This document shows positions 17,271 to 57,905 of a DNA stretch of 64,000 nt, piece after piece. This stretch comes from Kiritimatiellia bacterium. Its GTDB lineage: Bacteria; Verrucomicrobiota; Kiritimatiellia; RFP12; UBA1067. A model generated the notes under the pieces. That model was not told the origin of the DNA. It saw only the letters and a list, made by a program, of their open reading frames with translations, and ran no database searches. A program made the position numbers and the translations under genes. Position 1 is the stretch's first letter. The number at the start of each line of letters is the position of its first letter. The stretch is from the NCBI GenBank assembly GCA_045627925.1, contig JAZQOS010000021.1, forward strand, positions 75,469 through 139,468. Reading direction: 5' to 3'.

Positions 17271-17321
17271 CTCAATTGTGGAAAAATCAAGCGAGAACGT
17301 CACTGGTGACAAGGGCGAATC

Positions 17322-17467
17322 TCCATACATGGACATGTAAATCTCCAAGTATGGAGATCGCAATGTCCATACATGGACATGGTAGGTGTCCATACATGGA
17401 GATCGGCGTGTCCATACATGGACATGCACCCTCTCCATACATGGAGATTAATGTCTCCATATATGGA
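17322..17467. repeat. Array of seven tandem 22-23-bp repeats with palindromic core TCCAT-NN-ATGGA (copy 1), immediately upstream of the operon promoter
   Basis: Cores at 17322, 17344, 17366, 17389, 17411, 17434 and 17456 (TCCATACATGGA x5, TCCAAGTATGGA, TCCATATATGGA). Period 22/23 bp, about two helical turns. Confidence 0.85.
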
Positions 17468-17578
17468 CATGACCGACTGCTAGGGCGGACGTTTGCAAAC
17501 GCTCGTTGATAGCCCAAAAGCACTATAAGTGCGACAATATGTCACACCTTAGTCGTTCTCACCTTTGAGCGTAACTTA

Positions 17579-19892: not shown

Positions 19893-20222
19893 AATATCAC
19901 CTCTATTGGTAAATATTATACTAAAACGCAGTTGTCAAAAGCAAGTGACTGATATGGTTTTTGTATTTTTACTGATATGTATTTTCTATTTTCACTGATA
20001 CATTACTTCCCCACGCTCCCCTCACCTTTGCTTTGGTTTTGTGCAAATTTTGCACATAACACTTACTTCTTTGAAATATACTTTGAAAATACATTTCTAA
20101 ATACAATAGCCGTATTCCTCAAGATAATTCGCGCAGCACTCTTACCTTCAAGCGGTTGCCACTCCACTACCTCTCCAACTTTTTATTCTCGCGGGCGCAA
20201 GGGGAGTGAAACCGACCCTAAA

Positions 20223-41256: not shown

Positions 41257-41333
<77 letters not shown>

Positions 41334-41355: not shown

Positions 41356-41368
41356 GTATTATATCACA
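41356..41368 (-). promoter_or_regulatory. Extended -10 (TGTGATATAATAC) for the tRNA-Thr/tuf transcript, overlapping the last codons of the upstream ATPase gene
   Basis: Reverse complement CACAAGTTTGTGATATAATACGCGAG. Confidence 0.4.
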
Positions 41369-42702
41369 AACTTGTGAATTTGCGCAAGGGGGTAATTAAA
41401 ACGGGAGGCGAGATACAACGGGATGTTCACAAACGCACCATCCTGTTTCAAATTACGTTCCGAAAAGCGAATCGCATAACGCGGATGCCGCGTGTTGACG
41501 AATGTCTTGAACGAGGCCGACTTTTTATCCTTCCCCGCCTTGACTTCCACCGGTACTGCAACGGAATCGTGCTGCAAAACAAAATCAATCTCCCTGTTCG
41601 CCCGTTTCGCGTAATAGTGAACCGCGCCTTCCACTTGCCCGGATAGCTGTTGTAGCACATAGTTCTCGACGAACCGACCCTTGAACGGAAAATCCCTGTC
41701 CAGCGCCAGCGACTCGGTGCTCACGCCAGCCACCGATCGCAGCATACCGATGTCGTTCAGATAAAGTTTGAAGGCGTTGCGCACCTCGTAGGCGGCCAAA
41801 GGATAGGCTATCTCCCCGACGTTGTAGATCCGCCGCACCATCCGAGCGGACACCAGCCACTCAATCGCCTCTTCGTATCCGCGGCCACGCGCCCCTTCCC
41901 GCAACGCCCCGTAGATGAACTTGCTGTTTTCCTTCGCCAGTTGCGGCACCACCGATCTGAGAACGACAAGAATCTTGGCGGCGTCGATTTCTCCATTGTA
42001 CTTCACGATGTCGTTCTCGTACAATGCGACAAGATCCTCCTGCAACTTCGCCACGCGCGACGGATCCTCGTTGGCAATGTAATTCGCGACAACCTCCGGC
42101 ATGCCGCCAACCATCAGATAAAGACGATATTCATCCGTCAGCTTGCGGTGAAACACATCCGGTATCGGCTCGACACCACGAATGGACAAGAAATACTCCC
42201 AAAGCGACTCGTTTCTCGCTCGCAGAAATTCCGAGAAGGAAATCGGTTCGACATTCATAAGCTCGACCTTGCCGACCGGATAGGTCTGCGGCAGCTCATG
42301 CGAACCGCGCGTTCGACGCAACTTAACCCCCAGCAAACTTCCCGCCGCAAGAATCGCCAGTTGCGGGCATTTCTCGCAAAAGTACTTCAGGCAGTTCAAT
42401 GCATTCCCGCATTCCTGAATCTCATCGAAGATAACCACATCCCGTGCAATGTCAATCTTCGCGCCACTAATGGCCGAAAGTCGGGTCAAAATGGATGATG
42501 GATCCTTGGTTCCCTCGAAAACCGATGCCAAATCCGGCGTATCGTCAAAGTTAAATTCATGAACACGGGCAAAGTGCTTCCGACCAAAATCACGCATCAG
42601 CCATGTCTTGCCAACCTGCCGCGCTCCCATTAAAACCAACGGCTTACGATCTAAACGATCTTTCCAAGCCAAAATATCTTCTTCAACAAGCCTTTTCATC
42701 AT
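41359..42702 (-). CDS. AAA-family ATP-binding protein with DUF4143-like C-terminus (paralogue 2)
   Basis: Walker A GARQVGKTW; Walker B VVIFDEIQ; 447 aa. Confidence 0.7.
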   Translation of the reverse strand: MMKRLVEEDILAWKDRLDRKPLVLMGARQVGKTWLMRDFGRKHFARVHEFNFDDTPDLASVFEGTKDPSSILTRLSAISGAKIDIARDVVIFDEIQECGNALNCLKYFCEKCPQLAILAAGSLLGVKLRRTRGSHELPQTYPVGKVELMNVEPISFSEFLRARNESLWEYFLSIRGVEPIPDVFHRKLTDEYRLYLMVGGMPEVVANYIANEDPSRVAKLQEDLVALYENDIVKYNGEIDAAKILVVLRSVVPQLAKENSKFIYGALREGARGRGYEEAIEWLVSARMVRRIYNVGEIAYPLAAYEVRNAFKLYLNDIGMLRSVAGVSTESLALDRDFPFKGRFVENYVLQQLSGQVEGAVHYYAKRANREIDFVLQHDSVAVPVEVKAGKDKKSASFKTFVNTRHPRYAIRFSERNLKQDGAFVNIPLYLASRFNYPLAQIHKFVI

Positions 42703-42771: not shown

Positions 42772-44172
42772 TCACTTTACCGTAATAACCGGTGCCTTGC
42801 GGGACTTTCCAAGCTGGATAAGCGGATCGCCGAAAAGCATTTCCTCGACGATGGCAGACTGGATATACGGGAGATCTTCTTCGACGTTGCAGCCGCGCTT
42901 TTCAATCTCCGCCTGCTGATTGGCACCGTAGATGATTCCCACATAAGTCGAGATCGCGTACTTCCACGCTTCTCCAGCCGTCTTGCCATCCCGAACATAC
43001 GCATCAAGCGTATAATCCAACATTTCGTCCGAGATTCCGCAATAACGCTTGGCAAAGCTTGTCTCCGCACTTTGTCCATACGAAGCATTGCCAATTGCCA
43101 CCAATGCCCCACCATTGGGATTGGAAATCGCGGTTTCAGCAACCGATGAATAATCAAAATTATTTACCGAACCGCCAAAGCATGGTGCATTGCAAGCAAA
43201 AAACTTAATAAGCCCAACATTATTGCCAAAAAATCCGGTTGAAAGAAAACTTATGCCTTCTAATGTTCCATGATCATACGGCATGAACATTTCCCAGTCC
43301 TCGCCCAAGATGCACTCTTTCATTGGAATAGTGTCATCTTCCTTATAGTCCTTCTTAAGGTTGGCAAGATAGGTTATTGAAGAAGGCCGCGCCGCCTTGA
43401 TAGCCGTATTAAGCCGAAGATTCATCGTATAATAGGTATCGGGATTGCCGTCCTTATCATACATCGAGCCTGTCATCTTCGCCTGTCCCGAAAGCCCCGC
43501 AAAGCGATTGTTGCCATCAAAACTTGCGCTCTCGCCACGTACCAATTTATTTACGTATGCCCGAACAAGCTCTTCGTATGTAGGAATGCTGCCATCGGAC
43601 TTTTGGACATATTCGCTTGGACGAAAATCCATTCGCGAAACAATGCACTTGGGCATCAGCGAATCCTTAGTTGAAAGCTCCCCCACTCCGCAATATTCAC
43701 CATCGCTATTGGGATCCCAATTGGCAGGACACGCAAAATAAAGATCAGATGGATACTGATCAAAATACTTAGCACTACTTTTTGCTTTAACTGGATAAGC
43801 GGTAATTCCCGGAATTGCATTATCGACCGTCAGCGTTACTCCCTGTACTGTCGCAGCCGTTGCTTGTACATCAAACCACATCCCACCCAAGACAAAATAT
43901 TTTGTTCCCGTTTGAGTCGCGGCGTTAATATACGCCTTAATCGACTCGGCCGCGTTGCGATAGTCCTTCCCTTCGCCATATTGATACGTTGCGTAGATCT
44001 CTTCCGCACTCTTCACCGCGAAGGTAACATTCGGGTGCGCTTTTTGGCGCTCGCCAATGTACCACGTCCAAAGCTCGACATAGTTCTTCGGCGCGATGAC
44101 GACATAGTCGGCGGCGGCGAACGCGAGATAAGCGAAAACAATTCCAAGCGAAGCAATTAAGATCTTTTTCAT
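42772..44172 (-). CDS. Secreted C25 (gingipain-like) cysteine peptidase homologue, short form (~466 aa); C-terminal tail KAPVITVK
   Basis: ATG at 44172 (the track starts at the TTG at 44181). Signal peptide. YFVLGGMWFDV (compare gingipain YVLLIGD); putative dyad PYDHGTLEG (His) and FACNAPCFGG (Cys); LFGDPLIQL end motif. Alignable to residues ~230-720 of the 3099-aa protein. Confidence 0.6.
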   Translation of the reverse strand: MKKILIASLGIVFAYLAFAAADYVVIAPKNYVELWTWYIGERQKAHPNVTFAVKSAEEIYATYQYGEGKDYRNAAESIKAYINAATQTGTKYFVLGGMWFDVQATAATVQGVTLTVDNAIPGITAYPVKAKSSAKYFDQYPSDLYFACPANWDPNSDGEYCGVGELSTKDSLMPKCIVSRMDFRPSEYVQKSDGSIPTYEELVRAYVNKLVRGESASFDGNNRFAGLSGQAKMTGSMYDKDGNPDTYYTMNLRLNTAIKAARPSSITYLANLKKDYKEDDTIPMKECILGEDWEMFMPYDHGTLEGISFLSTGFFGNNVGLIKFFACNAPCFGGSVNNFDYSSVAETAISNPNGGALVAIGNASYGQSAETSFAKRYCGISDEMLDYTLDAYVRDGKTAGEAWKYAISTYVGIIYGANQQAEIEKRGCNVEEDLPYIQSAIVEEMLFGDPLIQLGKSRKAPVITVK

Positions 44173-44182
44173 GGTAATCAAT

Positions 44183-44191: not shown

Positions 44192-44533
44192 TTTTTACCC
44201 GACTATGATGCGCTCTTAATCCCACCCGACAGAAACGCGGCAGAAATTACTCCGACTTTCGGGGTGTGTCCCCGCCCCCAGCCTATCGCCTCAATGGGGT
44301 CGCACCCCACTGTGGCCCCTCCTTTTTTGCCGGGACACACCCTCATTTTCGACTCTTCCGGGAGATGAATAAAATCGAAGGGTGTCTGGTCCGCTTTGCT
44401 ATCCCGGCTGCACGATCCTCTTGCGAGGAAGGGCTCCAGCTACTTCTCCGTGCCTCAGCTGTGTACTTCCGGAGGGTTGCCTTCGACGCCCATTATTCTA
44501 CCACACCAAACTTCTAAAAGGCAATAGCGCGCC

Positions 44534-45697
44534 TTACTTATTTCCCTTTGCGCGATTGTGGGTCTTGCAAAGCATTTGGCAGTTGCCGATGTCGGTCGCT
44601 CCGCCCTTCGACCATGCGGTTACATGGTCTGCATCCATCTCATTAAAGCTATAGATTCTCGATTTGTTCGCCGCATGACCAATCGCGCAAAGCGGACAAT
44701 TCGATATTCCCTTGGCTTTGGCATCTTCGGTTTGCTTCGCATAAACTATCTTCGCCTCTTTGGGATCAAATACCCGAATCTCAAGTAGTTTTACGTCTTT
44801 TTCGCCTCCGAGAACATACTCAAAGACGCCTCGCCGATTTTTCACGCACTCGTCCGCATACAACGCTTTAACGCGCTCTATAACTTTCTTTGGGTTATAT
44901 GATGTTTTATGATATGTCTCGTAAAGCCGTCCCCACTCAAGTCCGCACATTTCATCTTCGGCGCACTCGAACACGCCGTCTATCCAATCGATTACCGTAT
45001 TGAAGTAGGTTTTAAGCTCCCTGATGTCCTTATCCCTGCGATGCTTGGCCATATAGCCATCGATATCGCCCTTCGACACCCAATTAAGCGCCTCGCGCAA
45101 AATCTCCTGGCGCTTCTCGTTCCCTTTTACATACGCCTTCCACTTTTGGAGATTGGAGTTATTGGAATTACTGAACTCTTCTTTTGCCGCAGTCACAAAC
45201 GGACCCGAGTAAATCGCGTTCAGAAGCTCTTGCTCATTTAGTGGAACGCCGACGATATTAATCGTCTTGAACCATTCCTTGATTTCCGGCTCTTCGCCTT
45301 CGCATACGTAAATCGTGAGCTTTGCGGCGAGAATGCGCTTTTGCAGCACCTTATCAAGCCCGTCAAAGTTTTGCTGCATCCCGTTCCTGTCGACAACCGC
45401 AAACTTATTCGTCACAAATCGTCCAATACTCGTAATTCGCTGTTGTCCATCCAATACCTCATACTTACCTTCCTTCGTTTTCACGAAGTAGATAAGCCCA
45501 AGCGGATATTCCTTGAGCAAGGAGTCGATTACCGCAACATCTTTCTTGCCGTCAGCATAAATATAGTTGCGCTGATACTCGGGCTGAATAACGAGCTTAC
45601 CACCCCACCCAAAAAGGCCCTTGCCTTCAAGCTCGTTATACACAAACCCATCGCAAATATCCGCAACTGTCAAATCAGTTATTAATGTCGTTTTCAT
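44534..45697 (-). CDS. DUF262 (ParB/GmrS-like NTP-binding) domain fused to a C-terminal HNH endonuclease
   Basis: DGQQR motif (LDGQQRITSIGRF); C-terminal CPLC...ADHVTAWSKGG...NCQMLCKTHNRAKGN (HNH with zinc ribbon); 387 aa; ATG overlaps the MTase stop (ATGA). Confidence 0.8.
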   Translation of the reverse strand: MKTTLITDLTVADICDGFVYNELEGKGLFGWGGKLVIQPEYQRNYIYADGKKDVAVIDSLLKEYPLGLIYFVKTKEGKYEVLDGQQRITSIGRFVTNKFAVVDRNGMQQNFDGLDKVLQKRILAAKLTIYVCEGEEPEIKEWFKTINIVGVPLNEQELLNAIYSGPFVTAAKEEFSNSNNSNLQKWKAYVKGNEKRQEILREALNWVSKGDIDGYMAKHRRDKDIRELKTYFNTVIDWIDGVFECAEDEMCGLEWGRLYETYHKTSYNPKKVIERVKALYADECVKNRRGVFEYVLGGEKDVKLLEIRVFDPKEAKIVYAKQTEDAKAKGISNCPLCAIGHAANKSRIYSFNEMDADHVTAWSKGGATDIGNCQMLCKTHNRAKGNK

Positions 45698-46890
45698 TTG
45701 CCCTTTCCTTTCCTCGCCTGCTTCCGATTCCTAATTAATATTCGCTGATAAACCTTCTCCTGTGTTTCACCAATTGTAATGACTCCACTAGCATTCAAGT
45801 CGTACGTCCCCTTCTTGCCAAACTTCTTGAAATACGCCGCCTTACACTCAGCCGAGGTGTAGACCCGAGTTTTCATGCCATATAAATCCTCATTCTCACA
45901 CATTCCCAATATCTCAAACTGCTCCGGACAATACTTATCAAGAAACGAGATTGGCACGCCCATTACGCCCTTGTAATCACTTGGGATTGCATCGGTATAT
46001 GGAATCTCAATTGCATCATAATTATCATACTTTTGATAACCGATATTTCGCACTTCCTTGTGCTTCGAATACTTGATGTTGTCAGCCTCGCTCATCAATT
46101 GAAGAGGTTGATGTCGCCGCCCATGCTCAAGATTGGTAAACCATCTAACACCTTTTACGCGAATAAATTTACTTCCTTTTTCATCAACTCGCGTTCCTGC
46201 TGCATAAAGCGGATACTCATCTGGAACGCCAAACTCACGATCTCCGCTATGAATACTTTCGCCTAGCCATAACTTATTTTCCTTAATCAAGGGAAATACC
46301 TCTTTATAAGTTATAGCGTTCATATTCCCGATAATTAAGAATTCCTTCTTTGCTTCCACAATCCAAGCCAAAAACTCACGGAAAAGCGAAAACGGCGGAT
46401 TAGTTACGATAATATCGGCTTCGTCGCGAAGCTTCCTTACCTCATTACTACGAAAATCACCGTCGCCTTTTAGATACTTCCACTCCAAGTCCTCAATATC
46501 AATCCGCCCATTCTTGTTGGTGTCGTGATCAAGAACGAATATCTTGCCCTTTACGCGCGTTTTCTTCTTATCAAAATGCGGAGACTTCGTTTCAAATAGG
46601 GTTGGTTGGTAAATCTGCTTTATATTCTTTGATTCGATTGCATAGCTGGTCGAGATCAGTTTTTTAAGCCCAAAGTGTTCAAAGTTTTGGGCGAAGAACT
46701 TGGTAAAGTTGCTCCACTCGGGATCGTCGCACGGCAAAAGAACTGTCTTGCCACGAAAAACATTCGGGTCATATTCCAAGTACGCATTGACCTCTTTTTG
46801 GATGTCAGCATATTGCGTATAGAACTCGTCGTTCTTCGCACTCTTCGCCTTCGATAGATTCGTGTTCGCCATGTCTTTCCGTTCGCGCAT
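45694..46890 (-). CDS. N6-adenine DNA methyltransferase, EcoRI-methylase-like family
   Basis: N-terminal NDEFYTQ motif; motif IV DIIVTNPPFS; ~398 aa (an alternative ATG lies at 46872). Confidence 0.75.
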   Translation of the reverse strand: MRERKDMANTNLSKAKSAKNDEFYTQYADIQKEVNAYLEYDPNVFRGKTVLLPCDDPEWSNFTKFFAQNFEHFGLKKLISTSYAIESKNIKQIYQPTLFETKSPHFDKKKTRVKGKIFVLDHDTNKNGRIDIEDLEWKYLKGDGDFRSNEVRKLRDEADIIVTNPPFSLFREFLAWIVEAKKEFLIIGNMNAITYKEVFPLIKENKLWLGESIHSGDREFGVPDEYPLYAAGTRVDEKGSKFIRVKGVRWFTNLEHGRRHQPLQLMSEADNIKYSKHKEVRNIGYQKYDNYDAIEIPYTDAIPSDYKGVMGVPISFLDKYCPEQFEILGMCENEDLYGMKTRVYTSAECKAAYFKKFGKKGTYDLNASGVITIGETQEKVYQRILIRNRKQARKGKGK

Positions 46891-47270
46891 ATCGCAAAAC
46901 AGTCAGACATGAAAAGCGGCACGCCTCTCCACGTCGCTCCGTGGCTCTGGAAAGCCCATAAGAAACGTGAAGAGGCGGCCAGATTGCTGGCACACCTCTG
47001 CAAACACGTCGTCTTATTTGAAATTTTCCAGATTTCGGAGCCGACTTGTCTTGCAGTGATGCAAGTAAATTATTGTGCAGCCAAGGGTGGGCTTTTCGCG
47101 GGACTTTTGCGAACCCGTAGGCTCGACTCCCATCTACTTCGCCAGTTCTATGACCTATGTGGTTCCCCTCGCGGAGAACATGAAATATTATAGCAAAAAT
47201 TTCTTATACTTAGTACATACAGATGTGTTGTTGTTTTTTATGTTTTCTTTTTTTGTCTTGTTTATGTTAG

Positions 47271-47350
47271 TGTCTCTATTGGAGACTCCGGAGTCTCTAT
47301 TGGAGACTTCAAAGTCTCTATTGGAGACTATCGAGTCTCCATTGGAGACT
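47271..47350. repeat. Four tandem ~21-bp units, each a perfect palindrome AGTCTC-N5-GAGACT
   Basis: GTCTCTATTGGAGACT at 47272, 47293 and 47315; GTCTCCATTGGAGACT at 47335. Confidence 0.85.
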
Positions 47351-47527
47351 GCCATTAACGCTCGTTAACGCCTTTTGTTGATAACTTCTGGCAAACTGAG
47401 GACTTGACCCTCCTTTTCGCATGGATAACGAGGTTTATCAGTATATTTTGATTGCAGTAACACCCCTCCCCCACCCAGAAAAAAGGCCAAAAAAACGTTG
47501 TGAGGGGGGGTAACTGCTATTAAAAGT

Positions 47528-47575
47528 GATAATTAATAATAATATATATATTTATTATTATTTTACTTAAATAAC
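47528..47575. repeat. ~45-bp pure A/T tract (possible DNA-unwinding element), preceded by a C-run/G-run inverted repeat at 47461-47510
   Basis: AATTAATAATAATATATATATTTATTATTATTTTACTTAAATAA; CCCCTCCCCCACCC ... GAGGGGGGG. Confidence 0.7.
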
Positions 47576-47584
47576 CCCTATTTT

Positions 47585-47668
47585 GATAGCAGTTTGATAG
47601 CAGTTGATAGCAGTTTTCAACTGCAATCAAGCCCTATTTTGACCCCAGATTGCAGTTTTCAACTGCAA
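47585..47668. repeat. Three tandem GATAGCAGTT repeats plus two copies of the palindrome (TT)GCAGTT-TTC-AACTGC(AA)
   Basis: GATAGCAGTT at 47585, 47596 and 47606; palindromes at 47612-47626 and 47650-47668. Confidence 0.85.
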
Positions 47669-47724
47669 CCAAACTGCAGTCAAACCGCAACCATTCTCTC
47701 CCGCTGGCGGGTAGCGATATGGTC

Positions 47725-47806
47725 GTTGGGGGTTTGAGGTTTGACTGTTGGGGGTTTTGACTTTGAGCGTTGGGGGTTTTGACTTTGAGCGTTGGGGGTT
47801 TTGAGC
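47725..47806. repeat. Four tandem 22-bp iteron-like direct repeats GTTGGGGGTTTTGACTTTGAGC
   Basis: Copies start at 47725, 47747, 47769 and 47791 (the last is truncated). Confidence 0.85.
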
Positions 47807-47999
47807 ATCTCTGCTGGTAGAAAGCTCGACCCGTTATCCCCTTTTGATCGACCTCGCCGACGGGTAAGACAAAATCGGTTAACGGGCAAGACCAAAAGTG
47901 GTATACCACTTTACCCCTTACCCGTTAACGGGTTTTCGAAAAAGGGTATACCCTTTTTCAAAAAAGGGTATACCACTTTTGGCTTTTACCAGCAGAGAT
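47807..47999. repeat. Inverted repeat TCTCTGCTGGTA / TACCAGCAGAGA bracketing three perfect 18-bp palindromes (AAAGTGGTATACCACTTT, AAAGGGTATACCCTTT, AAAAGGGTATACCACTTTT) and a CCGTTAACGG palindrome
   Basis: Sequence read directly; coordinates 47808-47819 and 47988-47999 for the flanking inverted repeat. Confidence 0.8.
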
Positions 48000-48093
48000 C
48001 GTAAAATAGCCCGCCTACGCAGTTTCCAAGTCGTAGTTGTAGAAAGGAGGCTTAAAATTCCACTCTACCACTACAACTTGATACTACAACTAT

Positions 48094-51000
48094 TTACCTG
48101 ACTATGATGCGGGGAGCGCGATGAATCACCGGCGTCTTCGGGAATAGTTCCGTATAGGCCTTGATTTCCGAAGTGTTCAACACGCGTGAGTAAAGCCGAC
48201 CATCTTGTAAATAAACTTTTTCATTTGACGTTTGTGCATGCGTATAAGAGCAAGCTGTATTATTGAAAAGGAATGCAAGTTCTTTTTCACCCGACTCACC
48301 AGCTTTAACGCCATCCACATATAACGTCCATTTTCCATATGATCCGCTCAAACTGTCAAATGTAATAATGTAAGTATGGGTTTGCTTATTAGCAAATGGG
48401 ACGGTAACTCCTTCCGATGGATAATACGAAGTTGCACCGTTGCCACTGATAAAGAATTTAATCTTATTGGCAGTATCACCCGTCATAAGTCCAACCTTAA
48501 CTTTGGTAGCTCCCCATGCCAAGTTTTCCGCCCAAAGCTCCTCTTTTGCATTCGCCGTCTTAAGCGAGCAGGCAATGGTCATTGACGAGGGCGAAGTTGC
48601 AAGTTTCGTCGCATCGTAGTTCGGCGTCTCCGTGCTGAACTGATAAAAGATAGTGTCAAGATCTACCGGCTGTTCGACGACATAAAGTCCATCGTCACGC
48701 TTTTCGAGAGTAAGGCCAGCGGCATTGAGCGAAGCGCTGGTGAAAGTTTTCTCATAGGGCGTGCTCCACGTAATCAGCCGCGTTCCGACCGCGATCGAAG
48801 TCGGAACGATGAGCTCAATCGTGTCTTGAGCGAGCGTAACTCCACTTAAAGTAATCGGCGCTACGCCAGCCGCAAGCGAAATGGTCGCACAGTCAATCGA
48901 CCCTGAACCCGTGAAGGTATAGGACGATAAAGTTGAATTAAAGTTCATCTGCGAGCAAGCAACATCTTCATTGACGGTAACTGTTACTGCATTGACCAGT
49001 CCGCCACTCGTCGTTGAAACTGCGTCTTCAAAGCTCACCGCATTGCCGCTCGTCGTGCCAGTTCCATTATTAAAGCCACTCGCCGTCCATTCGCCGCTCT
49101 CCGTCGACCACGCCGTACCGCCTACACTTGCATTGGCCGCTGCACAAAGCCATCCATCAGAAACTGCAAGTTCCTTATCGAGCAACGCGCCAGCAACACG
49201 GAAAGTCGCCTTCGAAAACTCAAAGTCGTCTACTACGTGAATGAGCTTCAAGACTCCCGTTGCACCCTCCGTTCCGCTTGCATCAATAATACCAACCGGA
49301 TTGGAGTCGAGCGTAAAGCTACTATTGAGCTTAATTACGAGCGTGCCATTACCATTAAGTGCAACCTTGCTGGTGCTTGGCGACTTAAAGCTAAAGCTAC
49401 TCAAATAAATTGATTGATTTGAAGGTGGTGCAAAAACAACCAGTCCATTGTCAACAATCTCCGCTCCATACTCTCCACCAACTGCATTGCTCCGATCAAA
49501 ACCAACACACCCCTTCTCGTCTACTACCACTTCAACTAATCCATTCGCATTACTTATTGCGAGCATAAGCGACTGCTTGTGATTAGCCGTCTCTTCCAAC
49601 GAGGTAACAGTGAGGGTAAAGTGGCCTGGCTGATTTCCACTCGCCCTTGGGAAGGATCCCGTAAACAAAGTATACTCCGTCTGCGTCACTTCAATCCACC
49701 GATTGCCGGAGTTTGTCGTATCGTAACGGAACACACCACTACCACTCAAATTGGTAATCTTAAATGGCGTTTGTGCCGTATTATAACTCGGTCCAATAAA
49801 GATAGTTGAATTATTGCAAAACGAGAGTGTGGATGCAAACGAATTGGTAGGCGGATAAATATAGTTTCCACTTGCCGTCGAGAAAAACTCAACCGTGCCT
49901 TCGCCGGTAATATTACTTAGGTCGCACTCTTCAAGCGCAGTCACATTGTCCGCATGCTCAAAGACGAGTCGTCCACCATGCTCCACGATAACTTCATGAC
50001 CGTTAAGTGGCGCTGGATTGTTGTTGCTCATGCCAACGCGCACAGTAACCCCATCACTAATCACCAACTTCGCCGCATCTTTGATGAGGCAAAGCCGCGC
50101 CTCGCCAATGCCAACCAAGCGAAGCGTGCCATCGCCCGAAAGATAAATATCGTTGCCAAGCTCTTCCGTACCGAAACTATTGACGTTGCGCTCAACAACT
50201 TCATTGTCCTTGACCTCAATCGCATCTGGCCAAGCGGGGAATTCGTCTGCGAGCGCTTGAATCGCCGCTGGTGGAAGCGCGTAATCATACGCCCGCACAT
50301 CGTCCAAAATACCATCCACAGATTTAGAACCTACCCCACCACCGCAGACACTAAAGAATTGCCACTTCACAAGATCAGGTAGCGGCTGAGCGCCGGTAAG
50401 TTCAGTAGCTTCGCCAATCTTCTTACCATCTACATAAAAGGTATAGACACCTTTATGATACGTAAGTGCATAAGAATAGAAGCGCGCTGTCGCCGCCATT
50501 ACATCGCCTTGGATGAGATACGTAAAGCTGTTGCCGCCACCCCAACGACTAATTGCTGCATGATTCGCATCAACTGTCGTGAGCGCAAGGCCAGCCGAAT
50601 TGTCGCCTAATGAAAAATGCATAGCATTCTGATTCGTCCCTAAACGTGCACACCACGCAAAGGTCCAATCATTGGGACCAATGTAGAAGCGCCGCTCGTC
50701 ATTGGCATTATTATTGGCCTTTTCGGCCTTTACACCGTAACCATTGCGTGTCTTGGTATAAGCGTCGAGGTTTAAGCTCCCAAGATTGGTAATCCCGTGG
50801 CTTCCCCAGCTATTGACATGCTGATCAAACTTAAGCCCAGTTGTGACATCGTTAAGGTTGGCAATCTTGTAGATGAGCTTATTGCCGCTTTGAGTCCATA
50901 CGCCCATCGGATTCGTCTCGCCATTAGGGCCTACGACCTCGACTAAGAATTTATCCGCCTCATAGGTGAAACCATCCGCAATTTGAATGAGATCACAACC

Positions 51001-54000
51001 AACGGACACATCGCCCAAAGCGAAGATAAGTTTACCGACAGGATTCGAGGCAAGGGTCGCAATTGATGGTGCAAGCCCCGACAACGTAACACCGCCCGTA
51101 ATAATAAGCGATCCCGTAAACTGACGGAACTGATCGGTAATCACAACCGACGAGTCACCACTCGCATTGCCGTTAAAGGTAATTGCCGAAACGCCACCTA
51201 AGTAAGCATCCCCAACGAGCGTAGTAAAGTTGCTCGATCCCGCTTCGAGATCGAAAACGAGTGGCTGCGCGTCTGCGCCCTCCGTCTTCCAGACGAGTTT
51301 CCCGTTTTCAATGTCGTCCATCGTTACCGCTTTCCAACGACGATCACCATTGGGAGCAACCGCAACCATAGTCAAAGGTTCTTCACCCAACATAAAGCCG
51401 CTTTGTACTGGAATTATTTCCGTCTTAGCATCAAAGGCACTTACATTAAACCGAATTGAGCCAGTCGTGCCCGAATAAAGCTTATACTTGCTGGCCACAT
51501 CTGAATAGGTCGTAAGATCAATCACATCACCATTAGTGGTAATATATCCATTGCCCTTTAAGTTTTCGCTGCTATTGACCCGAGCATTACGGCCCATGAT
51601 TAGAAGTCCACTGTTGTTAATATCTCCATTCCAATAGCCATTGAGTTCTAAGCAGCCACTCGTTTCAATATCAAGTGGCTGACTACTATCAGAATGAGCT
51701 CCAGAAGCGCTTGACGAGGTGCCAGAATAAATTAGTCGCCGATTAACCGATGGCGTTGATTCACTACCTGCTACCACCAACTTAACCCCGATTGTCGCAC
51801 CAAGTAATTTAAATGCAGGACACAATGCGCCATTCCACTCGCTCGCCCGCGATTGGATAGTACGAAGTGCACGCAATCCAGCCATTGCAGTTACACGCGA
51901 AAAATCATTACCCACAATGCTTATGATATTGTTCGCATTGATGTTACCAATGCCAATCATACCCGCACCGCTAAGATTTGAGACTTCCATAGGATTTGTC
52001 CTATGATCAAGCTGCATCTCAAGCTCGGTGTGCAAGACGAGTGAAAGTGTAGAGGCAAACATCTTCGCCTTAACTGGCACCATAAATCTAAAGTTTCCAT
52101 CCTGAACGATTTCCACTTCGCCATCTCCCGTAAGTCCACTCCAGTTAGCAGTCGTGGACGAGAAATATTGCGTATGGTGAATGACAAGGCGTGAGCCCAA
52201 CTTAACTTCAACATGTCCCGTTTCAACTGGCGAGACATTACTATTCAAGGTAATGGTCGTATTTGCGCCAGTATCCAGCGACAAAACGCCCGATCCCGTA
52301 ACATAGTCAAAGACCGGAAGAATGTCGCCTTGAATAGTTGCAGGACCATTCATCGTGAACTCAGATGGCAATTTAACCGATACCCCATCATTTGCCTTCA
52401 AAATGAGTTTCTCGGTAGCCAAGCCGCTAACTGGCCCAATAGTCAGTTTCGTCGTCGGACAAGCACCCACAATAACTGTCGCCCCATCAGTTGCCGCTTC
52501 CAGTCGCGCAGCATAAACGTCATTCCAGTTTTCAATCTCAACTTCGCTCTCGTCGTAAGCACGCCAAGAAAGCTGCGTCCAATCGGTTTCACCCGCTGGC
52601 ACCGTTGCGTGGATTTCTGGTGGAACGAGATAGACAAAAGTTCCCTCGCGTGAAAGGAAGAACCCTTCGGTCCTACCGCCTTCAATTGGTTGAAACGCTT
52701 GCGCATCAAGTCCTCCGATTGGCCAAAGCGAATCCTCGTCAATTGTGAGCACTTTCTGGCGAGAGGCCTTAACGTTTTCGGTGATGGCAATATAAAGAGC
52801 GCCTTGGGCTCCTTCGCCAAGCGCCCACTTCTCCGACGGCTCATAGATATAGACACTGTCGTTACCACCACTTACGAGCACTCCGCTCGAAGGTCCTTTA
52901 ATATTAGTTTCAGTTGCAGAATAAAGAATGCCCTCCTCAATTTCCACATTATTCAAAGTGACATTCTCAAATCCTTCCAGATGAAGTTCGCCCACTTTCA
53001 ATTCGCCGCCCTCAGCAATCGTGAAAGTAAAGCTCTTGACCGTATCATCCGCAGGAACGAACTTAAGCGTATTAAAGCGAGCTGGTTTATCTAAGGTGAG
53101 GGTCGCGTTATTCACAGCAACGGTAATTACACCGTCCGCCGTCCAGTCAAGATAACTTTCGCTCCACTTCTTCGTAAACGCCGTGCCATTGCCCGACCAT
53201 GCGGCGTCGTCCCAGTTAAGATTCGCCGAATTGACAGTCATTGTATAGGGCGAGGCGATATCGTCGCGCTTAACAAGGCAAAGCGCACCATCTTGAACCG
53301 CGAGCGAACAAGTGTCGCCTTCGACTTCTAACTTGCGCAAATCTTGCATATTCCAATGATGACCCGTGCCACCAATAATCACTTGTGGAGTTGCTGATGG
53401 GGTAAAGTCGCTGACATCAATCTTCACCTTCGAGCCGTCCTCCGGCCAAACGATTGAGGTAGTTGAATTCCACTCAAGATACTTTTCGTTTTCCGCTTTA
53501 AGGTAAGCGCCCTTATTGAGGACAAGATTCATCTTGTGGGAACCTTGCAAGGTCAACTTGCCGCCCTCATTTATCGTAATTTCAGTCCAATTATCGCCAT
53601 CTCCGCGCAATGTTGTCGCCTCGAAAATGCCGCCAGCTGCTACTTCTACGATAGGCGATATGATTTCCGTACCTTCTGCATCGCCACCCGAAACATAAAG
53701 TCGCGTATTGAAAATGAGCGGAAGCTCAAAGTGCGTCCAACCACCGATGACGAGCGAGTCGAAAGTAAGGGTTGCGTCTACTGCCGTTTGCGCTCGCTTA
53801 AAGGTGTACTTAGTAGTTGAGTTCGCAAAGCAAGTAAACGGACTTACAATGGAAGTCGCAAGTTGCACCGTAGCTACACTACCCGCAATATCGGGGAAGT
53901 AGACGCGCTCAGTTGGATCAAAAGCGGCCTCTTTACCATTCTTGCGCCACGGCTTAAAGGTCTTCTCCGAAGTCCACACTTCGTCTTCGCTCACCCATTC

Positions 54001-57000
54001 AAGAAGTGTACCCGACTGGAAGATAGTACCAGTTTGGGTATATTCAGCAATGATCTCGCCTTCGTCTTGAGCTTTGACCTTAACGGCAAACTCACCCTCC
54101 ACCACCATTGCGCTTGCAATCGGGACAACTTGATAGAAGTTACCCTCCTCGTATGGCAGGACAATCGTCGTTCCACTTGCAAATTCGAGGCGCTCAAGAT
54201 TGGAAAGCGGTAGCTTCTCCATTTCCATAGTTACGCCTTCACCAATGCGAATCGTACCATCAAGTCCATCCGCATTACCTACAATGACGCGACCTAAACC
54301 CGTAAAGACGAGCTTATCATCACTTCCCGCATTAAAGTCCGCATCAAGCCGGCAAACCGCACCCTCGTTGAGATAGATGGTTGTCGTGCCAATTAAGTTG
54401 AACCTACCACCATTCGTAGTTAAAAATCTGCAATTTCCGCTCATCTCCAAGGTAGCTTTATCGAGATAGAAGTCTTCCGTCGCATCAACTGCGAGCGTCG
54501 AGTTAGTCATCACGAGCTTCTTCTCGCTCACACGCTCTGAATAATTATTGCCGCTACTATCTTTTGCACCACGCCAACGATTTTGGCGGAAAGTCAAAAC
54601 TGAATTATTAAGTGTCGCCAAAGTATCACCCTCGTAGCCATCAAATGCTTCGTATGTTTCGAGGGTAAGGGCAATATTCTTAAGCGTGAGCGGCAAGAAG
54701 CGAACGAGTTCGCCTTTTATCTTCTGCTGATTGGTTCGTAAAACGTTGTTGCTTGAGACAATTGGAGATTGCCCTTCAAAACTAAGTGTTTGAAGAGTAT
54801 TATCGATTCCGCCTAAATCAAGAATCGCACCACCGCCTTGAAAAGCAATACTCCGTGCATTTGAAACTCCATTAATGAAATAGTACTTCTGGCCTTCGTT
54901 ATTGTTGTTAAGGACAAGATTGCCAGTGTTAGTAAAGTTAATCTTGCCCAAGCCTACACCTCCAGAGACCCCAATCTTAAGTGTGCCGCTCGAGACATTG
55001 AGGTCTTTCATGAGACGAAGTGAACTTGTACCTTTAAGTTCAAAGGTGCTTCCCGCATTCTGCGTCACGTTCATCGTCATGCCACCGTATGGTAGCTCCG
55101 TCTTCCCAAGTTCCTCTTCAATCGTATTAGGCACCATCGTAATTGTGGCTCCGCCCGAAACATTGAAGTTGATGTTATTCGCGTGATAGAAGGTGGAAGC
55201 GCTACCATTCTTCGTCCAATTCTGACTCGTCATATCCCATGTGCCATCGCTTCCACCAGCCCATGTGTAATCAAACTTATCTGAAATCTTGATTAAGGGA
55301 TCTCCATAGAGCATTTCGATCATCATACAGTAAAGACCGCCCTCGTTGATGTTCTTCTGTCCCACGGGCAAGTTGGAATTACCATTGCTAAGGTAAGTTC
55401 TAACCGAGTTTAACCACGCCTCGCCTGCGCAGTAACCTTGCGCAACGTTATCGCACATGTGATAGTGCATACGGTTGGAGAGTCCCTTACCATTAAGCTC
55501 CTCGGTTTCGAAGTAGCTTAAGCCCACGCGCGTATTATTCATAGACGCGATAAAACCACCAGTTTCGGTGATATTCGCAAGTCCTGCTTCACCCAAGCAA
55601 AGATTGAGTACGAGTTTACCATTGTTCCGCCCATAAAGATCGGGGAAACCAGTTTCGCACGAAATACCTACAACGTTAATCTTGGTAAGACCTGGCTGAG
55701 TTAAAAACATCGTCGAATTAAACATGGACGATCCACCCGCCCAACCGTGTCCATTGTTGGAGCCAGTTTCCTTATCGTAATTATAAAAGTCATTATAGAA
55801 AGAACTCTTCGTTGAATTGTGCGAAACAATATCGGGCTCATGGAAACCCATTGCGTCAATAATCGGATGACGCGGCGCCATAATCTCTTTCGCATGACGA
55901 CGTGTAAGCGGACCATCATCACGGAAACCAAATCCATGGACTGGATCATACATATTGGGAACATTATCAAAAAACTCACGCTCATCGCGAAGGACTAAGC
56001 GTGGATCGGTCATATCGCGTGGCGTATAATTTAAAGGTGAGGAAGTAAGACCCATCTTGAAGTTACCTCTAAACTTAGGATCTTCTGCACGATTCACTTT
56101 CTTAACGAAGTTGGTGATAATCTCATGCTGGTTCATCGTCACGCCATTGACCATTACTGGCTTCATCGTCATACGCGAAACCGCAAAGTCTGGCCTTAAG
56201 TTGCAGTGCTCAGATTCGTGATCGATAATTTTTCCGTTAGCGTCAAGAATTCGAGTCATATAACGTCCATCGCCATTATAGTCCCACGGATGACCTTTGT
56301 TGTCCGCTCCCCGCGTAACGCACGCATAAAACAAATCGGTTGGGGCGCGTGCGCCATGACACTCCATACAAATGGAAGGAACTGCGTTATTGAGCGTAAT
56401 TTCCGTGCCATCTTGCAAATAGTGTGCTTCACTATTATCTGCTGTTACATCATACCACGATCCACCAAGAACCACATACTTAAGTGCGTGACTTTTGGAA
56501 TACTGAGTTAAATAAGCATGAAGCGATTCTGCAGGGTTTGCGTAGGTAGTAGAGGTTTCGCCGTTCCAACCATTAAACGGATAAGCGTTGTAAGCATCAA
56601 TCGTGTTGATGATGTCAAAAGTAAGCGTGGGATGGTTTTTCTTGCGCTCGCCAATATACCACGACCAAGTATCATACAAATCTGGCGGCGAGATCATAAG
56701 GTAATCAACTGCCGTACCTTGAGCGGCGGCCATCAATTGCTCGGCCTTGGGCGCGGCATCTTCGGGGTTAACGAGCGTGGAGAGAGTGGCGGCAATATAG
56801 TCGGGGTGAGCGAGAGGCGTGGAGGTTGATGGAGAGGAGGTTGAGGCGGAGGGAGAGACGGAAAGGGTTGACATCAAGCGCGGCTTTTCGGTAAAGACCA
56901 CCGACAGCTTGAGGTTTTTCGCTTTTTCCAAGCGTTCATTCTCGTACCTAAATGGCGTGACGCCGACGATAACTACATCAAGAGCGGTAATCTTCTCGAC

Positions 57001-57456: not shown

Positions 57457-57633
57457 CTTTTCGCCGTCTCGTGGCCAAAATTTCCCACTACGCCTTTGCC
57501 GGGGACACCCTACTTTTTGCCTAACGGAAGTTTCTGGTGGTAGTAACGCCTTTTTCTGGTGTACCAAATTGACCAAAAAGTGATAGGTACGACTTTTCGC
57601 CTAAACAAACGTCCGCCCGAGCAGTCGGCCATG

Positions 57634-57779
57634 TCCATATATGGAGACATCAATCTCCAAGCATGGACCCCCTCCATGTCCATGTATGGACACGGCGATC
57701 TCCATGTATGGACACCTACCATGTCCTAGTATGGAGATTGCGATCTCCATACTAGGAGATTGACCTGTCCATATATGGA
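57634..57779. repeat. Array of seven tandem 22-23-bp repeats with core TCCAT-NN-ATGGA (copy 2), in inverted orientation relative to copy 1; lies between the two giant paralogues
   Basis: Cores at 57634, 57656, 57679, 57701, 57724, 57746 and 57768. Flanks (CAAACGTCCGCCC...GCAGTCGG) are the reverse complement of the copy-1 flanks (CCGACTGC...GGGCGGACGTTTG). Confidence 0.85.
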
Positions 57780-57905
57780 CATTTGCCCTTTCCAGAGGCG
57801 ATTCAAGTCGTCCGCCACGAGTGTGCGACATCGAAAGCACGGTCACGTTGAAGCTCGTCAAGGCTGACGGCACTTCCGCCGAGCGTCGCGTACCCCTCCA
57901 ACTTT

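What the first reader, a model, noticed from the sequence alone, without database searches (positions are those of the whole stretch)
46891..48093. 1.2-kb non-coding region with origin-like architecture: iterons, an AT tract and stacked perfect palindromes
Between the 3099-aa gene and the MTase lies 1.2 kb with no convincing ORF but dense ordered repeats. Reading in order, it holds 4x AGTCTC-N5-GAGACT palindromic units, a C-run/G-run hairpin, a ~45-bp pure A/T tract, 3x GATAGCAGTT, 2x GCAGTT-TTC-AACTGC palindromes and 4x 22-bp iterons GTTGGGGGTTTTGACTTTGAGC. It ends with a 12-bp inverted repeat bracketing three perfect 18-bp palindromes built on GGTATACC. Iterons plus an AT-rich unwinding element plus palindromes is the classic layout of a plasmid or phage oriV, or of an oriT. 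There is no rep, relaxase or integrase gene in the window. It could be a relic of an integrated replicon that delivered the AT-rich segment, or an unusually elaborate regulatory region for the downstream R-M-like operon.
Basis: seen in the sequence. Interest (0 to 1): 0.65.

Follow-up and report, generated by a model that had tools for sequence, protein, structure and literature searches.

The report
Orphan phage-type origin repeats, mosaic spacer
A 1.2-kb gene-free stretch in a Kiritimatiellia chromosome is a patchwork of separate DNA-repeat modules; one module matches the replication-origin repeats that a family of phage and integrative-element initiator genes carry inside themselves, so it is most likely a stranded mobile-element origin and not one working origin.

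Summary
The span is not one unit.

- **46891-47195** is the extended -10 promoter and a conserved, structured 5' leader of the mobile MTase-GmrSD operon.
- **47226-47350** (minus strand) holds four 17-bp dyad repeats, AGTCTC-N5-GAGACT, at an exact 21-bp period, followed by an A-rich tract. This is the layout of lambda ori.
  - The same array occurs in 16 prokaryotic-looking loci (plus 3 satellite-like) of 19 metagenome loci and in 2 temperate-phage contigs.
  - In at least 10 it lies in-frame inside winged-helix "O-like" initiator genes next to integrases. In others it lies beside Rep_trans, Rep_1 or primase-helicase genes.
  - The window copy is not in a gene, and no cognate initiator, Rep or integrase lies in the 64 kb.
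- **47448-47700** has about 10 GCAGTT boxes around the least stable 50 bp of the window.
- **47700-48006** (22-bp iterons plus a closed hairpin cluster) is conserved on its own in another Kiritimatiellia MAG, downstream of an unrelated gene.

There is no GC-skew switch and no DnaA-box cluster, so it is not oriC. Best reading: a mosaic junction with at least one orphan mobile-element origin that is silent unless an initiator comes in trans. Operator arrays are the main rival.

The parts
46873..47180 (-). Structured 5' leader of the MTase-GmrSD operon. About 200 nt are conserved in other MTase-GmrSD modules.
   Evidence: Homology with L032-L038 runs from window 47090 to 45723 at 72%. RNA fold z-score is -4.8. 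In a 4-sequence consensus, 10 of 22 predicted pairs keep pairing through changes on both sides.
47187..47195 (-). Extended -10 promoter TGCTATAAT for the leader and MTase operon.
   Evidence: TGNTATAAT occurs 10 times in the window against 1.2 expected, and the other 9 lie just upstream of gene or tRNA starts on the matching strand. L032 and L042 carry TGaTATAAT / TGgTATAAT in the same position relative to the MTase.
47226..47270 (-). A-rich tract (78% A+T; 66% A over the first 50 nt on the minus strand) directly after the last dyad repeat. Candidate unwinding element. It is also in the UP-element position of the promoter at 47187-47195.
   Evidence: The in-gene arrays of the related loci are likewise followed by 50 nt that are AT-richer than the contig.
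47271..47350 (-). Four 17-bp dyad-symmetric iterons AGTCTC-N5-GAGACT at an exact 21-bp period. An orphan origin-type array of the O-like initiator family.
   Evidence: The same array type is found in L007-L027. The minus-strand frame reads QSPMETR*SPIETLKSPIETPESPIET with in-frame stops, so it is not coding here.
47351..47447 (.). Unique spacer holding the only DnaA-box-like site (TTATCAACA at 47376, minus strand, one mismatch).
47448..47525 (.). GATTGCAGT box, C-run/G-run hairpin (47463-47510) and inverted AACTGCTATT box, on the left of the A/T tract.
   Evidence: (D5, I20).
47520..47574 (.). A/T tract, the least stable duplex in the 64-kb window.
   Evidence: -44.7 kcal/mol per 50 bp; the next lowest is -53.1; mean -73.4, sd 5.5.
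47583..47693 (.). About 8 GCAGTT/AACTGC boxes at 10-11-bp spacing (3 direct, then inverted, with two 15-bp palindromes), on the right of the A/T tract.
47700..47830 (+). Block A: four 22-bp iterons (47724-47804) with conserved flanks. The minus strand is C-rich and G-poor (35 C, 6 G in 81 nt).
   Evidence: 90% identity over 101 nt to L001, a different Kiritimatiellia MAG with otherwise unrelated context. Base composition.
47800..48006 (.). Hairpin cluster closed by an inverted repeat. It holds three GGTATACC palindromes and CCCGTTAACGGG, and includes a terminator-like stem (47974-47945, minus strand) followed by a T-run.
   Evidence: RNA fold z-score -6.7. L001 has a different-sequence closed hairpin in the same position next to the iterons, z -5.0.
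48026..48081 (-). Long hairpin (GTAGTTGTAG arms) immediately 3' of the 3099-aa gene's stop codon.

Best explanation
The span is a mosaic junction of independent non-coding modules, not one origin.

(1) 46891-47195 is the extended -10 promoter and the conserved structured leader of the horizontally mobile MTase-GmrSD operon.

(2) 47226-47350, read on the minus strand, is an orphan lambda/SPP1-type origin core: four dyad-symmetric 17-bp iterons two helical turns apart, then an A-rich unwinding tract. It belongs to a repeat family (AGTCTC-N5-GAGACT) that in temperate phages and integrative elements is embedded, as a heptad-coding stretch, just after the winged-helix domain of an O-like initiator.

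Inferred mechanism: initiator dimers bind each dyad on one face of the helix, wrap the DNA, melt the adjacent A-rich tract and load a helicase. No cognate initiator is encoded within 64 kb and the array is no longer inside a gene. The core would therefore be silent unless an initiator is supplied in trans by a related resident or incoming element. The exact 21-bp (7-codon) period suggests it is what remains of an initiator gene. On the downstream side that gene would have been truncated near the boundary of the MTase module.

(3) 47448-47700 (GCAGTT boxes flanking the window's most meltable 50 bp) and (4) 47700-48006 (22-bp iterons plus a closed hairpin cluster) are further origin- or centromere-style protein-binding modules of unknown partners. 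Module (4) moves independently between genomes.

Shown: the anatomy, the mosaic boundaries, the association of module (2)'s repeat type with initiator and replication genes elsewhere, and the absence of an initiator here. Inferred: the binding and melting mechanism, the relic origin of the array, and trans-activation.
For: - A metagenome scan for two adjacent units gave 19 loci. By my own estimate, about 0.004 would be expected for a 24-base self-complementary pattern in roughly 10^12 bases. The viral scan gave 2 more loci.
- In L008, L009, L014, L019/L026, L020, L021, L022, L023, L024 and L027 the array lies in-frame in 170-350-aa ORFs, directly after an N-terminal wHTH domain.
- HTH_36 hits are near threshold. 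PHROG hits are 'replication initiation O-like', 'DnaD-like helicase loader' and 'replication initiation protein', with E from 3e-3 to 8e-7.
- The subfamilies share the helix motif S(R/K)ATFF(R)xK.
- Neighbouring genes are tyrosine integrases, an excisionase-like HTH protein, ParB_N and a primase-helicase (BT4734_N + DUF3987). Arrays also flank a Rep_trans gene and precede a Rep_1 gene.
- L026 and L027 are tailed temperate phages with major head protein, portal, TerL and integrase.
- In the in-gene loci the arrays are followed on the sense strand by 50 nt that are AT-richer than both the upstream 50 nt and the contig. The window copy has 4 units, spacing 21/21/21, downstream AT 0.76 and A 0.66.
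- The layout equals oriλ: four 18-bp iterons plus a 38-bp AT-rich stretch inside gene O (PMC3349717). SPP1 has one origin inside its initiator gene and a second in an intergenic region, both bound by gp38 (PMC6316719).
- Mosaic nature: MTase-GmrSD homologues share the window only from 44532 to 46905 (L003-L006) or to 47090 (L032-L038). Block A is shared with L001 only.
- The A/T tract is the window's stability minimum.
Against: - No initiator, Rep, relaxase or integrase was found in the 64 kb by Pfam on the island genes, by tblastn, or by a motif search.
- The array is non-coding here, with no detectable flanking remnant of an O-like gene.
- The 'O-like' assignment of the carrier proteins rests on weak profile hits plus context. 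NCBIfam and PDB sequence searches gave nothing.
- The array and A-tract sit at about -30 to -160 of a good promoter, where operators and an UP element would also sit.
- Tandem palindrome arrays occur at ordinary promoters in this lineage: the TCCATACATGGA arrays upstream of two large genes and AAACGCGCGCGTTT four times around the L003 promoter.
- Modules (3) and (4) have no comparative link to replication genes.
- No plasmid or phage database match.
- Replication activity is untested.
Confidence: 0.5

Rival explanations
1. The arrays are transcription-factor operator arrays and insulating elements. The AGTCTC dyads plus the A-rich tract would regulate the TGCTATAAT promoter of the MTase-GmrSD operon. 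The GGTATACC hairpins and the C-rich 22-nt repeats would terminate and insulate the upstream 3099-aa gene. On this view none of it replicates DNA.
For: - The promoter lies 30 nt downstream of the A-tract, and the lineage uses TGNTATAAT promoters.
- Seven TCCATACATGGA dyads sit upstream of the 1008-aa gene, and the same array sits upstream of the 3099-aa gene.
- The L003 promoter is embedded in 21-22-bp-period palindrome arrays and shares the GTTAAsGGGyAAG motif with window 47860-47935.
- In both the window and L001, Block A lies directly 3' of a gene in the same orientation: hairpin domain, then an unstructured C-rich G-poor stretch (35 C, 6 G), which is a rut-like composition.
- A terminator-like stem with a T-run lies at 47974-47945.
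Against: - The MTase-GmrSD module elsewhere carries its own promoter and leader without any AGTCTC array.
- The AGTCTC array type is tied to initiator and replication genes in more than 12 unrelated loci, not to promoters of cargo genes.
- A 55-nt nearly pure A/T tract flanked by about 10 boxes is not a usual operator layout.
- No regulator gene is adjacent.
Confidence: 0.25
2. This is the first reader's model: one coherent, functional oriV (or oriT) of an integrated plasmid-like replicon. All blocks would cooperate as iterons, unwinding element and auxiliary palindromes, with the Rep or relaxase encoded outside the window.
For: - Ordered helical-phase arrays with periods of 10-11, 21 and 22 bp.
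- An extreme A/T tract.
- GC content is lower from 42 kb onward than in the adjacent tuf-rpo cluster.
- The source contig (200.7 kb) extends beyond the 64-kb window.
Against: - The blocks have different histories. The left 300 bp belongs to the MTase module. Block A occurs in L001 without the other blocks. The AGTCTC arrays elsewhere occur without the other blocks.
- No Rep, relaxase or integrase in 64 kb.
- One weak DnaA box.
- No match in 72,556 plasmids or 50,697 phages.
- The island is 5' of tRNA-Thr, not at its 3' end, and no att-like repeat was seen.
Confidence: 0.1
3. The span is a stack of lineage-specific dispersed intergenic repeat elements (BIME/MITE-like mosaic modules) that accumulate at junctions between accessory gene cassettes. 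The arrays would mark recombination junctions and have no sequence-specific function of their own.
For: - The window and L001 share two short blocks, A (about 100 nt at 90%) and B (97 nt at 97%), in the same order and orientation but 0.75 kb versus 9.7 kb apart, flanking different genes.
- The 185-nt TCCATACATGGA array is present twice, in inverted orientation.
- In L032 a ~490-nt stack of short tandem arrays is repeated at least twice, with further partial copies in both orientations, around the AbiE and MTase-GmrSD cassettes.
- L001 shows nested inverted and direct repeats around the blocks.
Against: - All motifs of the 1.2-kb span are single-locus within the 64 kb.
- The iteron pair hit only one locus in one genome among 185,579 species representatives, and none in the JGI metagenomes or IMG/VR.
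- The AGTCTC array type is conserved across phyla in a defined functional context.
Confidence: 0.1

Closest known systems
Bacteriophage lambda ori / O protein (oriλ inside gene O)
   Same: - Four dyad-symmetric iterons of 17-18 bp (6-bp arms, 5-bp spacer, CTC...GAG core), about two helical turns apart.
- An AT-rich stretch of about 40 bp directly adjoining them, for a total of about 120-127 bp (PMC3349717; window).
- In the related loci the array is embedded in the initiator gene, after the DNA-binding domain.
   Different: - The half-site differs: AGTCTC against TCCCTC (the lambda sequence is quoted from my own knowledge).
- The window copy is outside any gene, and no initiator is nearby.
- The carrier proteins match O-like PHROGs only weakly.
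- The host is a PVC-group bacterium.
Bacillus phage SPP1 oriL / oriR with gp38
   Same: One origin lies inside the initiator gene and a second, non-coding copy lies in an intergenic region. Both are made of direct repeats plus an AT-rich unwinding element and are bound by the same initiator (PMC6316719). This is a precedent for a gene-free copy of an in-gene origin.
   Different: In SPP1 both copies are on the same phage genome as gp38. Here the orphan copy is chromosomal, with no phage genes around it.
Phage-origin interference: PER elements of dairy phages and oriλ-plasmid inhibition
   Same: A non-coding phage origin fragment, present in the host without the initiator gene, interferes with infecting phages that carry the cognate initiator (PMC6356513; PMC3349717). 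The window copy sits among defence-type genes: MTase, GmrSD/HNH and AAA_14-DUF4143.
   Different: The known cases are copy-number dependent and plasmid-borne or engineered. The window copy is single-copy and chromosomal, and no interference has been shown.
Iteron plasmid origins (R6K, pPS10 and RK2 oriV types)
   Same: Direct repeats at a 22-bp period (47724-47804) and an AT-rich region nearby. From memory only, the repeat unit TGAC-N3-TGAG...GGGGG loosely resembles the RK2 17-mer TGACAnnTGAGGGGC. This is a lead, not a test.
   Different: - No adjacent rep gene and no inverted half-iteron operator.
- One weak DnaA box.
- The AT tract is separated from the iterons by 150 bp of other repeats.
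- No sequence match in PLSDB.
SaPI / phage-satellite origins (iterons flanking an AT-rich region)
   Same: GCAGTT boxes on both sides of a 55-bp A/T tract (47448-47693) resemble, from my own knowledge of the SaPI ori, short iterons flanking an AT-rich core.
   Different: No Pri/Rep helicase gene is adjacent and no satellite genes are in the window. The resemblance was not testable here.

Membership tests
Lambda/SPP1-type initiator-bound origin (iterons + DUE) | At least 3-4 tandem dyad-symmetric initiator sites spaced about two helical turns apart | tested here: met
   Four units at spacings of 21/21/21 bp; 7 matches against 0.03 expected.
Lambda/SPP1-type initiator-bound origin (iterons + DUE) | An AT-rich unwinding stretch directly adjoining the last iteron | tested here: met
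   47226-47270 is 78% A+T with a strand-asymmetric A excess. The same polarity is seen in the in-gene arrays.
Lambda/SPP1-type initiator-bound origin (iterons + DUE) | The same iteron type is associated with initiator or replication genes in other replicons | tested here: met
   L007-L027: the array is inside wHTH O-like ORFs, beside Rep_trans, Rep_1 or primase-helicase genes, next to integrases, and in two tailed-phage contigs.
Lambda/SPP1-type initiator-bound origin (iterons + DUE) | A cognate initiator encoded in cis (origin inside or next to its gene) | tested here: not met
   The array is not in an ORF: there are in-frame TAG and TAA codons. No O-like, Rep or S(R/K)ATFF-motif protein is found in any frame of the 64 kb.
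Lambda/SPP1-type initiator-bound origin (iterons + DUE) | Initiator-dependent replication or unwinding activity | not testable with these tools
   Needs a plasmid replication assay or marker-frequency assay with the initiator supplied.
Iteron plasmid oriV (Rep_3/TrfA-type) | Direct 17-22-bp repeats at a period of about 22 bp | tested here: met
   47724-47804, period 22, 3.7 copies.
Iteron plasmid oriV (Rep_3/TrfA-type) | An adjacent rep gene, usually with half-iteron operators | tested here: not met
   No rep gene in the window. In L001 the flanking gene fragment has no detectable homologue or family.
Iteron plasmid oriV (Rep_3/TrfA-type) | DnaA boxes in the origin | tested here: not met
   Only TTATCAACA at 47376 (one mismatch). 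The window-wide density is 0.2 per kb.
Chromosomal oriC | A GC-skew switch and a DnaA-box cluster, usually near dnaA or dnaN | tested here: not met
   Cumulative GC skew falls almost monotonically across the window, with only small upticks (25-26 kb, 40-41 kb, 47-48 kb, 56-57 kb) and no polarity switch at the region. One weak DnaA box. The neighbouring genes are an MTase and a giant LamG protein.
oriT | A relaxase or mobilisation gene nearby and a nic-site consensus next to an inverted repeat | tested here: inconclusive
   No relaxase among the island genes. Nic-site families cannot be scored with these tools.
Dispersed intergenic repeat family (REP/BIME/MITE) | Many copies of the same unit across the genome | tested here: inconclusive
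   The span's motifs are single-locus within 64 kb. The iteron pair gave one locus among the GTDB species representatives. The rest of this genome could not be read. Neighbouring arrays (TCCATACATGGA) do occur twice.
R-M controller (C-protein) operator / C-box | An adjacent C gene, with operators that co-travel with the R-M module | tested here: not met
   No C-like ORF. MTase-GmrSD modules in L003-L006, L032-L042 lack the AGTCTC array.
Known non-coding RNA family (Rfam 15) | A covariance-model match at the gathering score | tested here: not met
   Only miRNA/snoRNA models far below threshold, on the palindromes. The 46873-47180 leader is structured and conserved but matches no family.

The most novel reading that the evidence does not exclude
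The region is a chromosomal trap of orphan origins kept in a defence island. Stacked binding arrays for several foreign initiators (O-like and others) would sit next to the MTase-GmrSD and AAA_14-DUF4143 genes. When a phage or integrative element expressing a cognate initiator enters, the arrays would do one of three things:
- sequester the initiator, as in PER or oriλ-plasmid interference;
- fire locally and amplify the adjacent defence genes;
- fire locally and cause lethal unscheduled chromosomal replication, which amounts to abortive infection.

This would be a sequence-only, protein-free defence or sensor element.
Probability: 0.07. Interest if true: 0.8.

Novelty: new variant of a known kind. 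Interest (0 to 1): 0.45.

Why it matters
- It gives a sequence signature for a widespread, apparently undescribed family of phage and integrative-element replication modules spanning low-GC to high-GC hosts. The signature is AGTCTC-N5-GAGACT at a 21-bp period, read as xS[PQH]xET heptads directly after a winged-helix domain with an S(R/K)ATFF helix. That could help annotate origins and initiators in metagenomes.
- It shows that a striking "origin-like" intergenic region can be a patchwork. Here the pieces are an operon leader, an orphan origin core and independently mobile repeat modules. This is a caution for origin prediction from repeat architecture alone.
- If the orphan origin is kept and not merely decaying, it would be a natural counterpart of the engineered phage-origin interference systems.

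Tried and rejected
- **Chromosomal oriC.** Rejected: no skew switch and no DnaA-box cluster.
- **Known ncRNA.** Rejected for the repeat blocks: Rfam gave only artefacts.
- **Small protein genes.** Rejected: no Pfam or PHROG hits for the 8 window ORFs tested, and no protein in 5.8 billion clusters shares words with the pseudo-ORF that runs through the iterons.
- **C-box or methylation target of the adjacent MTase.** Rejected: the MTase-GmrSD module occurs elsewhere without the arrays.
- **Decayed O-like gene around the array.** No residual similarity by tblastn or by reading the frames.
- **Integration at tRNA-Thr.** The island lies 5' of the tRNA, and no att-like repeat was found.
- **Tn7/Mu-like transposon ends for Blocks A and B.** Rejected: the two repeat sets are unrelated in sequence.
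- **Searches that led nowhere.**
  - blastn of the span against plasmids and phages.
  - tblastn of O-like proteins against phages and plasmids.
  - Iteron-pair scans of the JGI metagenomes and IMG/VR.
  - Viral scans for the TCCATACATGGA, Block B and GCAGTT palindrome motifs.
  - Looser viral scans, which gave only chance-level or unrelated hits.
  - A homologue search for the gene fragment next to the L001 iterons.
  - Exact look-up of the source contig.
  - NCBIfam and PDB sequence searches for the O-like proteins.
Full report
**Setting**

The window has a tuf-rpo type housekeeping cluster ending at tRNA-Thr (41257-41332, minus strand). After it comes a lower-GC stretch in which all genes are on the minus strand:
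- AAA_14/DUF4143 ATPase (41359-42702)
- C25-like peptidase (42772-44181)
- GmrSD-HNH (44534-45697)
- EcoRI-family MTase (45694-46890)
- the 1.2-kb gene-free span
- a 3099-aa LamG protein (48094-57393)
- a 1997-aa LamG protein (57906-63899)

Cumulative GC skew falls almost monotonically across the window and shows no polarity switch at the region. The only other genome carrying the 22-bp iterons is a Kiritimatiellia MAG, so the source is probably a related PVC bacterium.

**Observation**

- The A/T tract at 47520-47574 is the least stable 50-bp duplex in the 64 kb, about 5 sd below the mean.
- None of the 8 ORFs scanned in the span has family support.
- Rfam gives only sub-threshold hits on the palindromes.

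**The span is a mosaic**

Three comparisons cut it into pieces with different histories.

(a) The MTase-GmrSD pair is a mobile two-gene module.
- In ENA contigs L003-L006, homology at 82-89% nt runs from window 44532 to 46905 only. Upstream of the module in L003-L005 (L006 starts inside the MTase gene) lies an unrelated 251-aa gene with its own promoter.
- In a second set, L032-L038, homology extends to window 47090.
- The window, L032 and L042 all have a TGNTATAAT box about 230-340 nt upstream of the MTase start, and these three plus L039 have a leader with a hairpin that is conserved in position but not in sequence. In a four-sequence consensus, 10 of 22 predicted pairs keep pairing through changes on both sides.
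- The window leader folds better than all 100 shuffles, z = -4.8.
- TGNTATAAT occurs 10 times in the window against 1.2 expected. The other nine copies lie 2-63 nt upstream of gene or tRNA starts on the correct strand.
- So 46891-47195 is the promoter and conserved 5' leader of the MTase operon.

(b) The 22-bp iteron block is shared with L001.
- The block with its flanks (about 47700-47830) is 90% identical over 101 nt to one locus in MAG JAZRWB01, where nothing else of the span is present.
- In both genomes the block lies directly 3' of a gene: the 3099-aa gene in the window, a truncated DUF4143 gene in L001.
- In both it is preceded by a hairpin cluster closed by an inverted repeat. The hairpin sequences differ but the position is the same.
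- A second short block (window 57522-57617, 97% identical) lies upstream of the same two genes.

(c) The AGTCTC array has its own relatives, described next.

**The AGTCTC-N5-GAGACT array**

A scan of JGI metagenome contigs for two adjacent units returned 19 loci, and IMG/VR returned 2. By my estimate, well under one would be expected by chance. Three loci look like eukaryotic satellites.

In the prokaryotic loci the arrays have 2-6 units, almost always at 21 bp.
- In at least ten loci they lie in-frame inside ORFs of 170-350 aa, immediately after an N-terminal winged-helix domain. They are read there as heptads such as ESPVETG, ESQIETx or MQSQNET.
- These proteins hit HTH_36 near threshold, and PHROGs named "replication initiation O-like", "DnaD-like helicase loader" and "replication initiation protein".
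- The subfamilies, from contigs of 36% to 54% GC, share the helix motif S(R/K)ATFF(R)xK.
- Their neighbours are tyrosine integrases, excisionase-like HTH genes, ParB_N and a primase-helicase. In two loci the arrays flank a Rep_trans gene or precede a Rep_1 gene.
- L026 and L027 are tailed temperate phages.
- In the in-gene loci the 50 nt after the array on the sense strand are AT-richer than the 50 nt before it and than the contig, and in several loci they carry short 12-15-bp repeats.

This is the architecture of oriλ: four 18-bp dyad iterons joined to a 38-bp AT-rich stretch inside gene O (PMC3349717). It is also the architecture of SPP1 oriL inside gene 38 (PMC6316719).

The window copy, read on the minus strand, has four units at 21/21/21 bp, followed at once by 45 nt of A-rich DNA. 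Its spacer (CAATA) is closest to that of the marine L009/L020/L022/L024 group (CAGTA).

It differs in one defining respect: it is not in a gene.
- The matching frame reads QSPMETR*SPIETLKSPIETPESPIET, with a TAA just upstream.
- No flanking similarity to the carrier proteins remains.
- Neither those proteins, their helix motif, nor any Rep or integrase query finds anything in the 64 kb.
- The exact 7-codon period suggests descent from an in-gene origin. This is inference. The A-rich tract ends about 30 nt from the promoter that starts the MTase module, so that module's arrival may have removed the downstream half of the gene.
- SPP1 oriR shows that a gene-free copy of such an origin can be a real initiator target.

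**The remaining blocks**

- 47448-47693 holds about ten (G)AT(A/T)GCAGTT boxes in both orientations, at one-turn spacing, on both sides of the A/T tract, plus a C-run/G-run hairpin. The layout is origin-like, but I found no informative relative. One viral contig carries 2-3 such boxes between a repressor gene and a TerS gene, which is a near-chance hit.
- Block A (22-bp iterons plus hairpins) could be a plasmid-type iteron set. On the transcribed strand it could equally be a 3' module: a strongly structured domain followed by an unstructured stretch with 35 C and 6 G, together with a terminator-like stem and T-run at 47974-47945.

**Why the operator reading stays alive**

- The AGTCTC array and the A-tract occupy about -30 to -160 of the TGCTATAAT promoter.
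- Seven TCCATACATGGA dyads at a 22-23-bp period sit upstream of the 1008-aa gene. An inverted 185-nt copy, 88.6% identical, sits upstream of the 3099-aa gene.
- A related contig has four AAACGCGCGCGTTT palindromes wrapped around a consensus promoter.
- L032 shows stacks of short tandem arrays repeated around defence cassettes.

Repeat arrays at promoters and at cassette junctions are therefore common in these genomes.

**Verdict**

The "one origin" interpretation is only partly supported.

Best-supported account: a junction region composed of the MTase operon's promoter and leader, an orphan lambda-type origin core of a newly recognised AGTCTC/O-like-initiator family, and two further protein-binding repeat modules of unknown partners, one of which moves independently. 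The origin core would work only with an initiator supplied in trans. Whether it is a relic, a trans-acting origin or a retained decoy cannot be decided without the rest of the genome or an experiment.

It is a new variant of a known kind, of moderate interest.

Noticed in passing
window 46873-47195; L032 3360-3703; L042 about 200-430; L039 about 3760-4003: EcoRI-family MTase + GmrSD/HNH operons in several lineages share a TGNTATAAT promoter followed by a 230-340-nt structured leader. The leader has a hairpin conserved in position but not in sequence. This is a candidate new cis-regulatory RNA with no Rfam match.
   Followed up: partly
window 17311-17495 and 57606-57790: A 185-nt array of 6-7 TCCATACATGGA dyads (period 22-23 bp) is present twice in inverted orientation, 88.6% identical and 40 kb apart. 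Each copy lies upstream of a large secreted-protein gene.
   Followed up: partly
window 57522-57617; L001 5439-5535: A 97-nt block with TTTCTGGTG repeats at 22-bp spacing is 97% identical between two otherwise unrelated loci. In both it sits just upstream of the promoter of the gene whose 3' end carries the 22-bp iteron block. The result is a conserved 5' block, variable gene, conserved 3' block arrangement.
   Followed up: partly
L032 234-720, 2783-3250, 6246-6340; inverted at 6560-6620 and 6920-6990: A ~490-nt stack of short tandem arrays (AATGTTNG about 5 times, GGTTTAGAA about 4, AGTTTAG about 6, CTACTAA about 6) plus a terminator hairpin is repeated around the AbiE and MTase-GmrSD cassettes. 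Array stacks at defence-cassette junctions may be general in these gut genomes.
   Followed up: no
window, 10 sites (for example 17262, 41358, 42723, 44183, 57448): TGNTATAAT extended -10 boxes are about 8-fold over-represented. Most lie 2-63 nt upstream of start codons or tRNA 5' ends, which suggests short-leader or leaderless transcripts in this lineage.
   Followed up: partly
window 18621-19892 and 41359-42702; L001 5654-6121: There are two full AAA_14/DUF4143 ATPase genes, each near tRNA genes. The one at 18621-19892 has 23-bp and 12-bp tandem arrays upstream (19948-20104). A truncated DUF4143 gene lies between the two conserved blocks in L001.
   Followed up: no
window 178-3935 versus 10251-14055: A 3.8-kb direct duplication at 77% identity covers large secreted-protein genes, including a CotH/LTD domain protein.
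   Followed up: no
L007-L027 (for example L021 4260-4380, L009 2092-2168, L019 9657-9778): Origin iterons are read in-frame as 7-residue repeats (xS[PQH]xET) in a family of winged-helix initiator-like proteins spanning 36-54% GC contigs. In L007 the same dyads bracket a Rep_trans gene on both sides.
   Followed up: partly
L001 4515-4559 / 6405-6440, and 5371-5408 / 6641-6678: A 45-nt direct repeat and a 38-nt inverted repeat bracket the HepT/MntA toxin-antitoxin pair, the DUF4143 fragment and both conserved blocks. This hints at cassette-type rearrangement.
   Followed up: no
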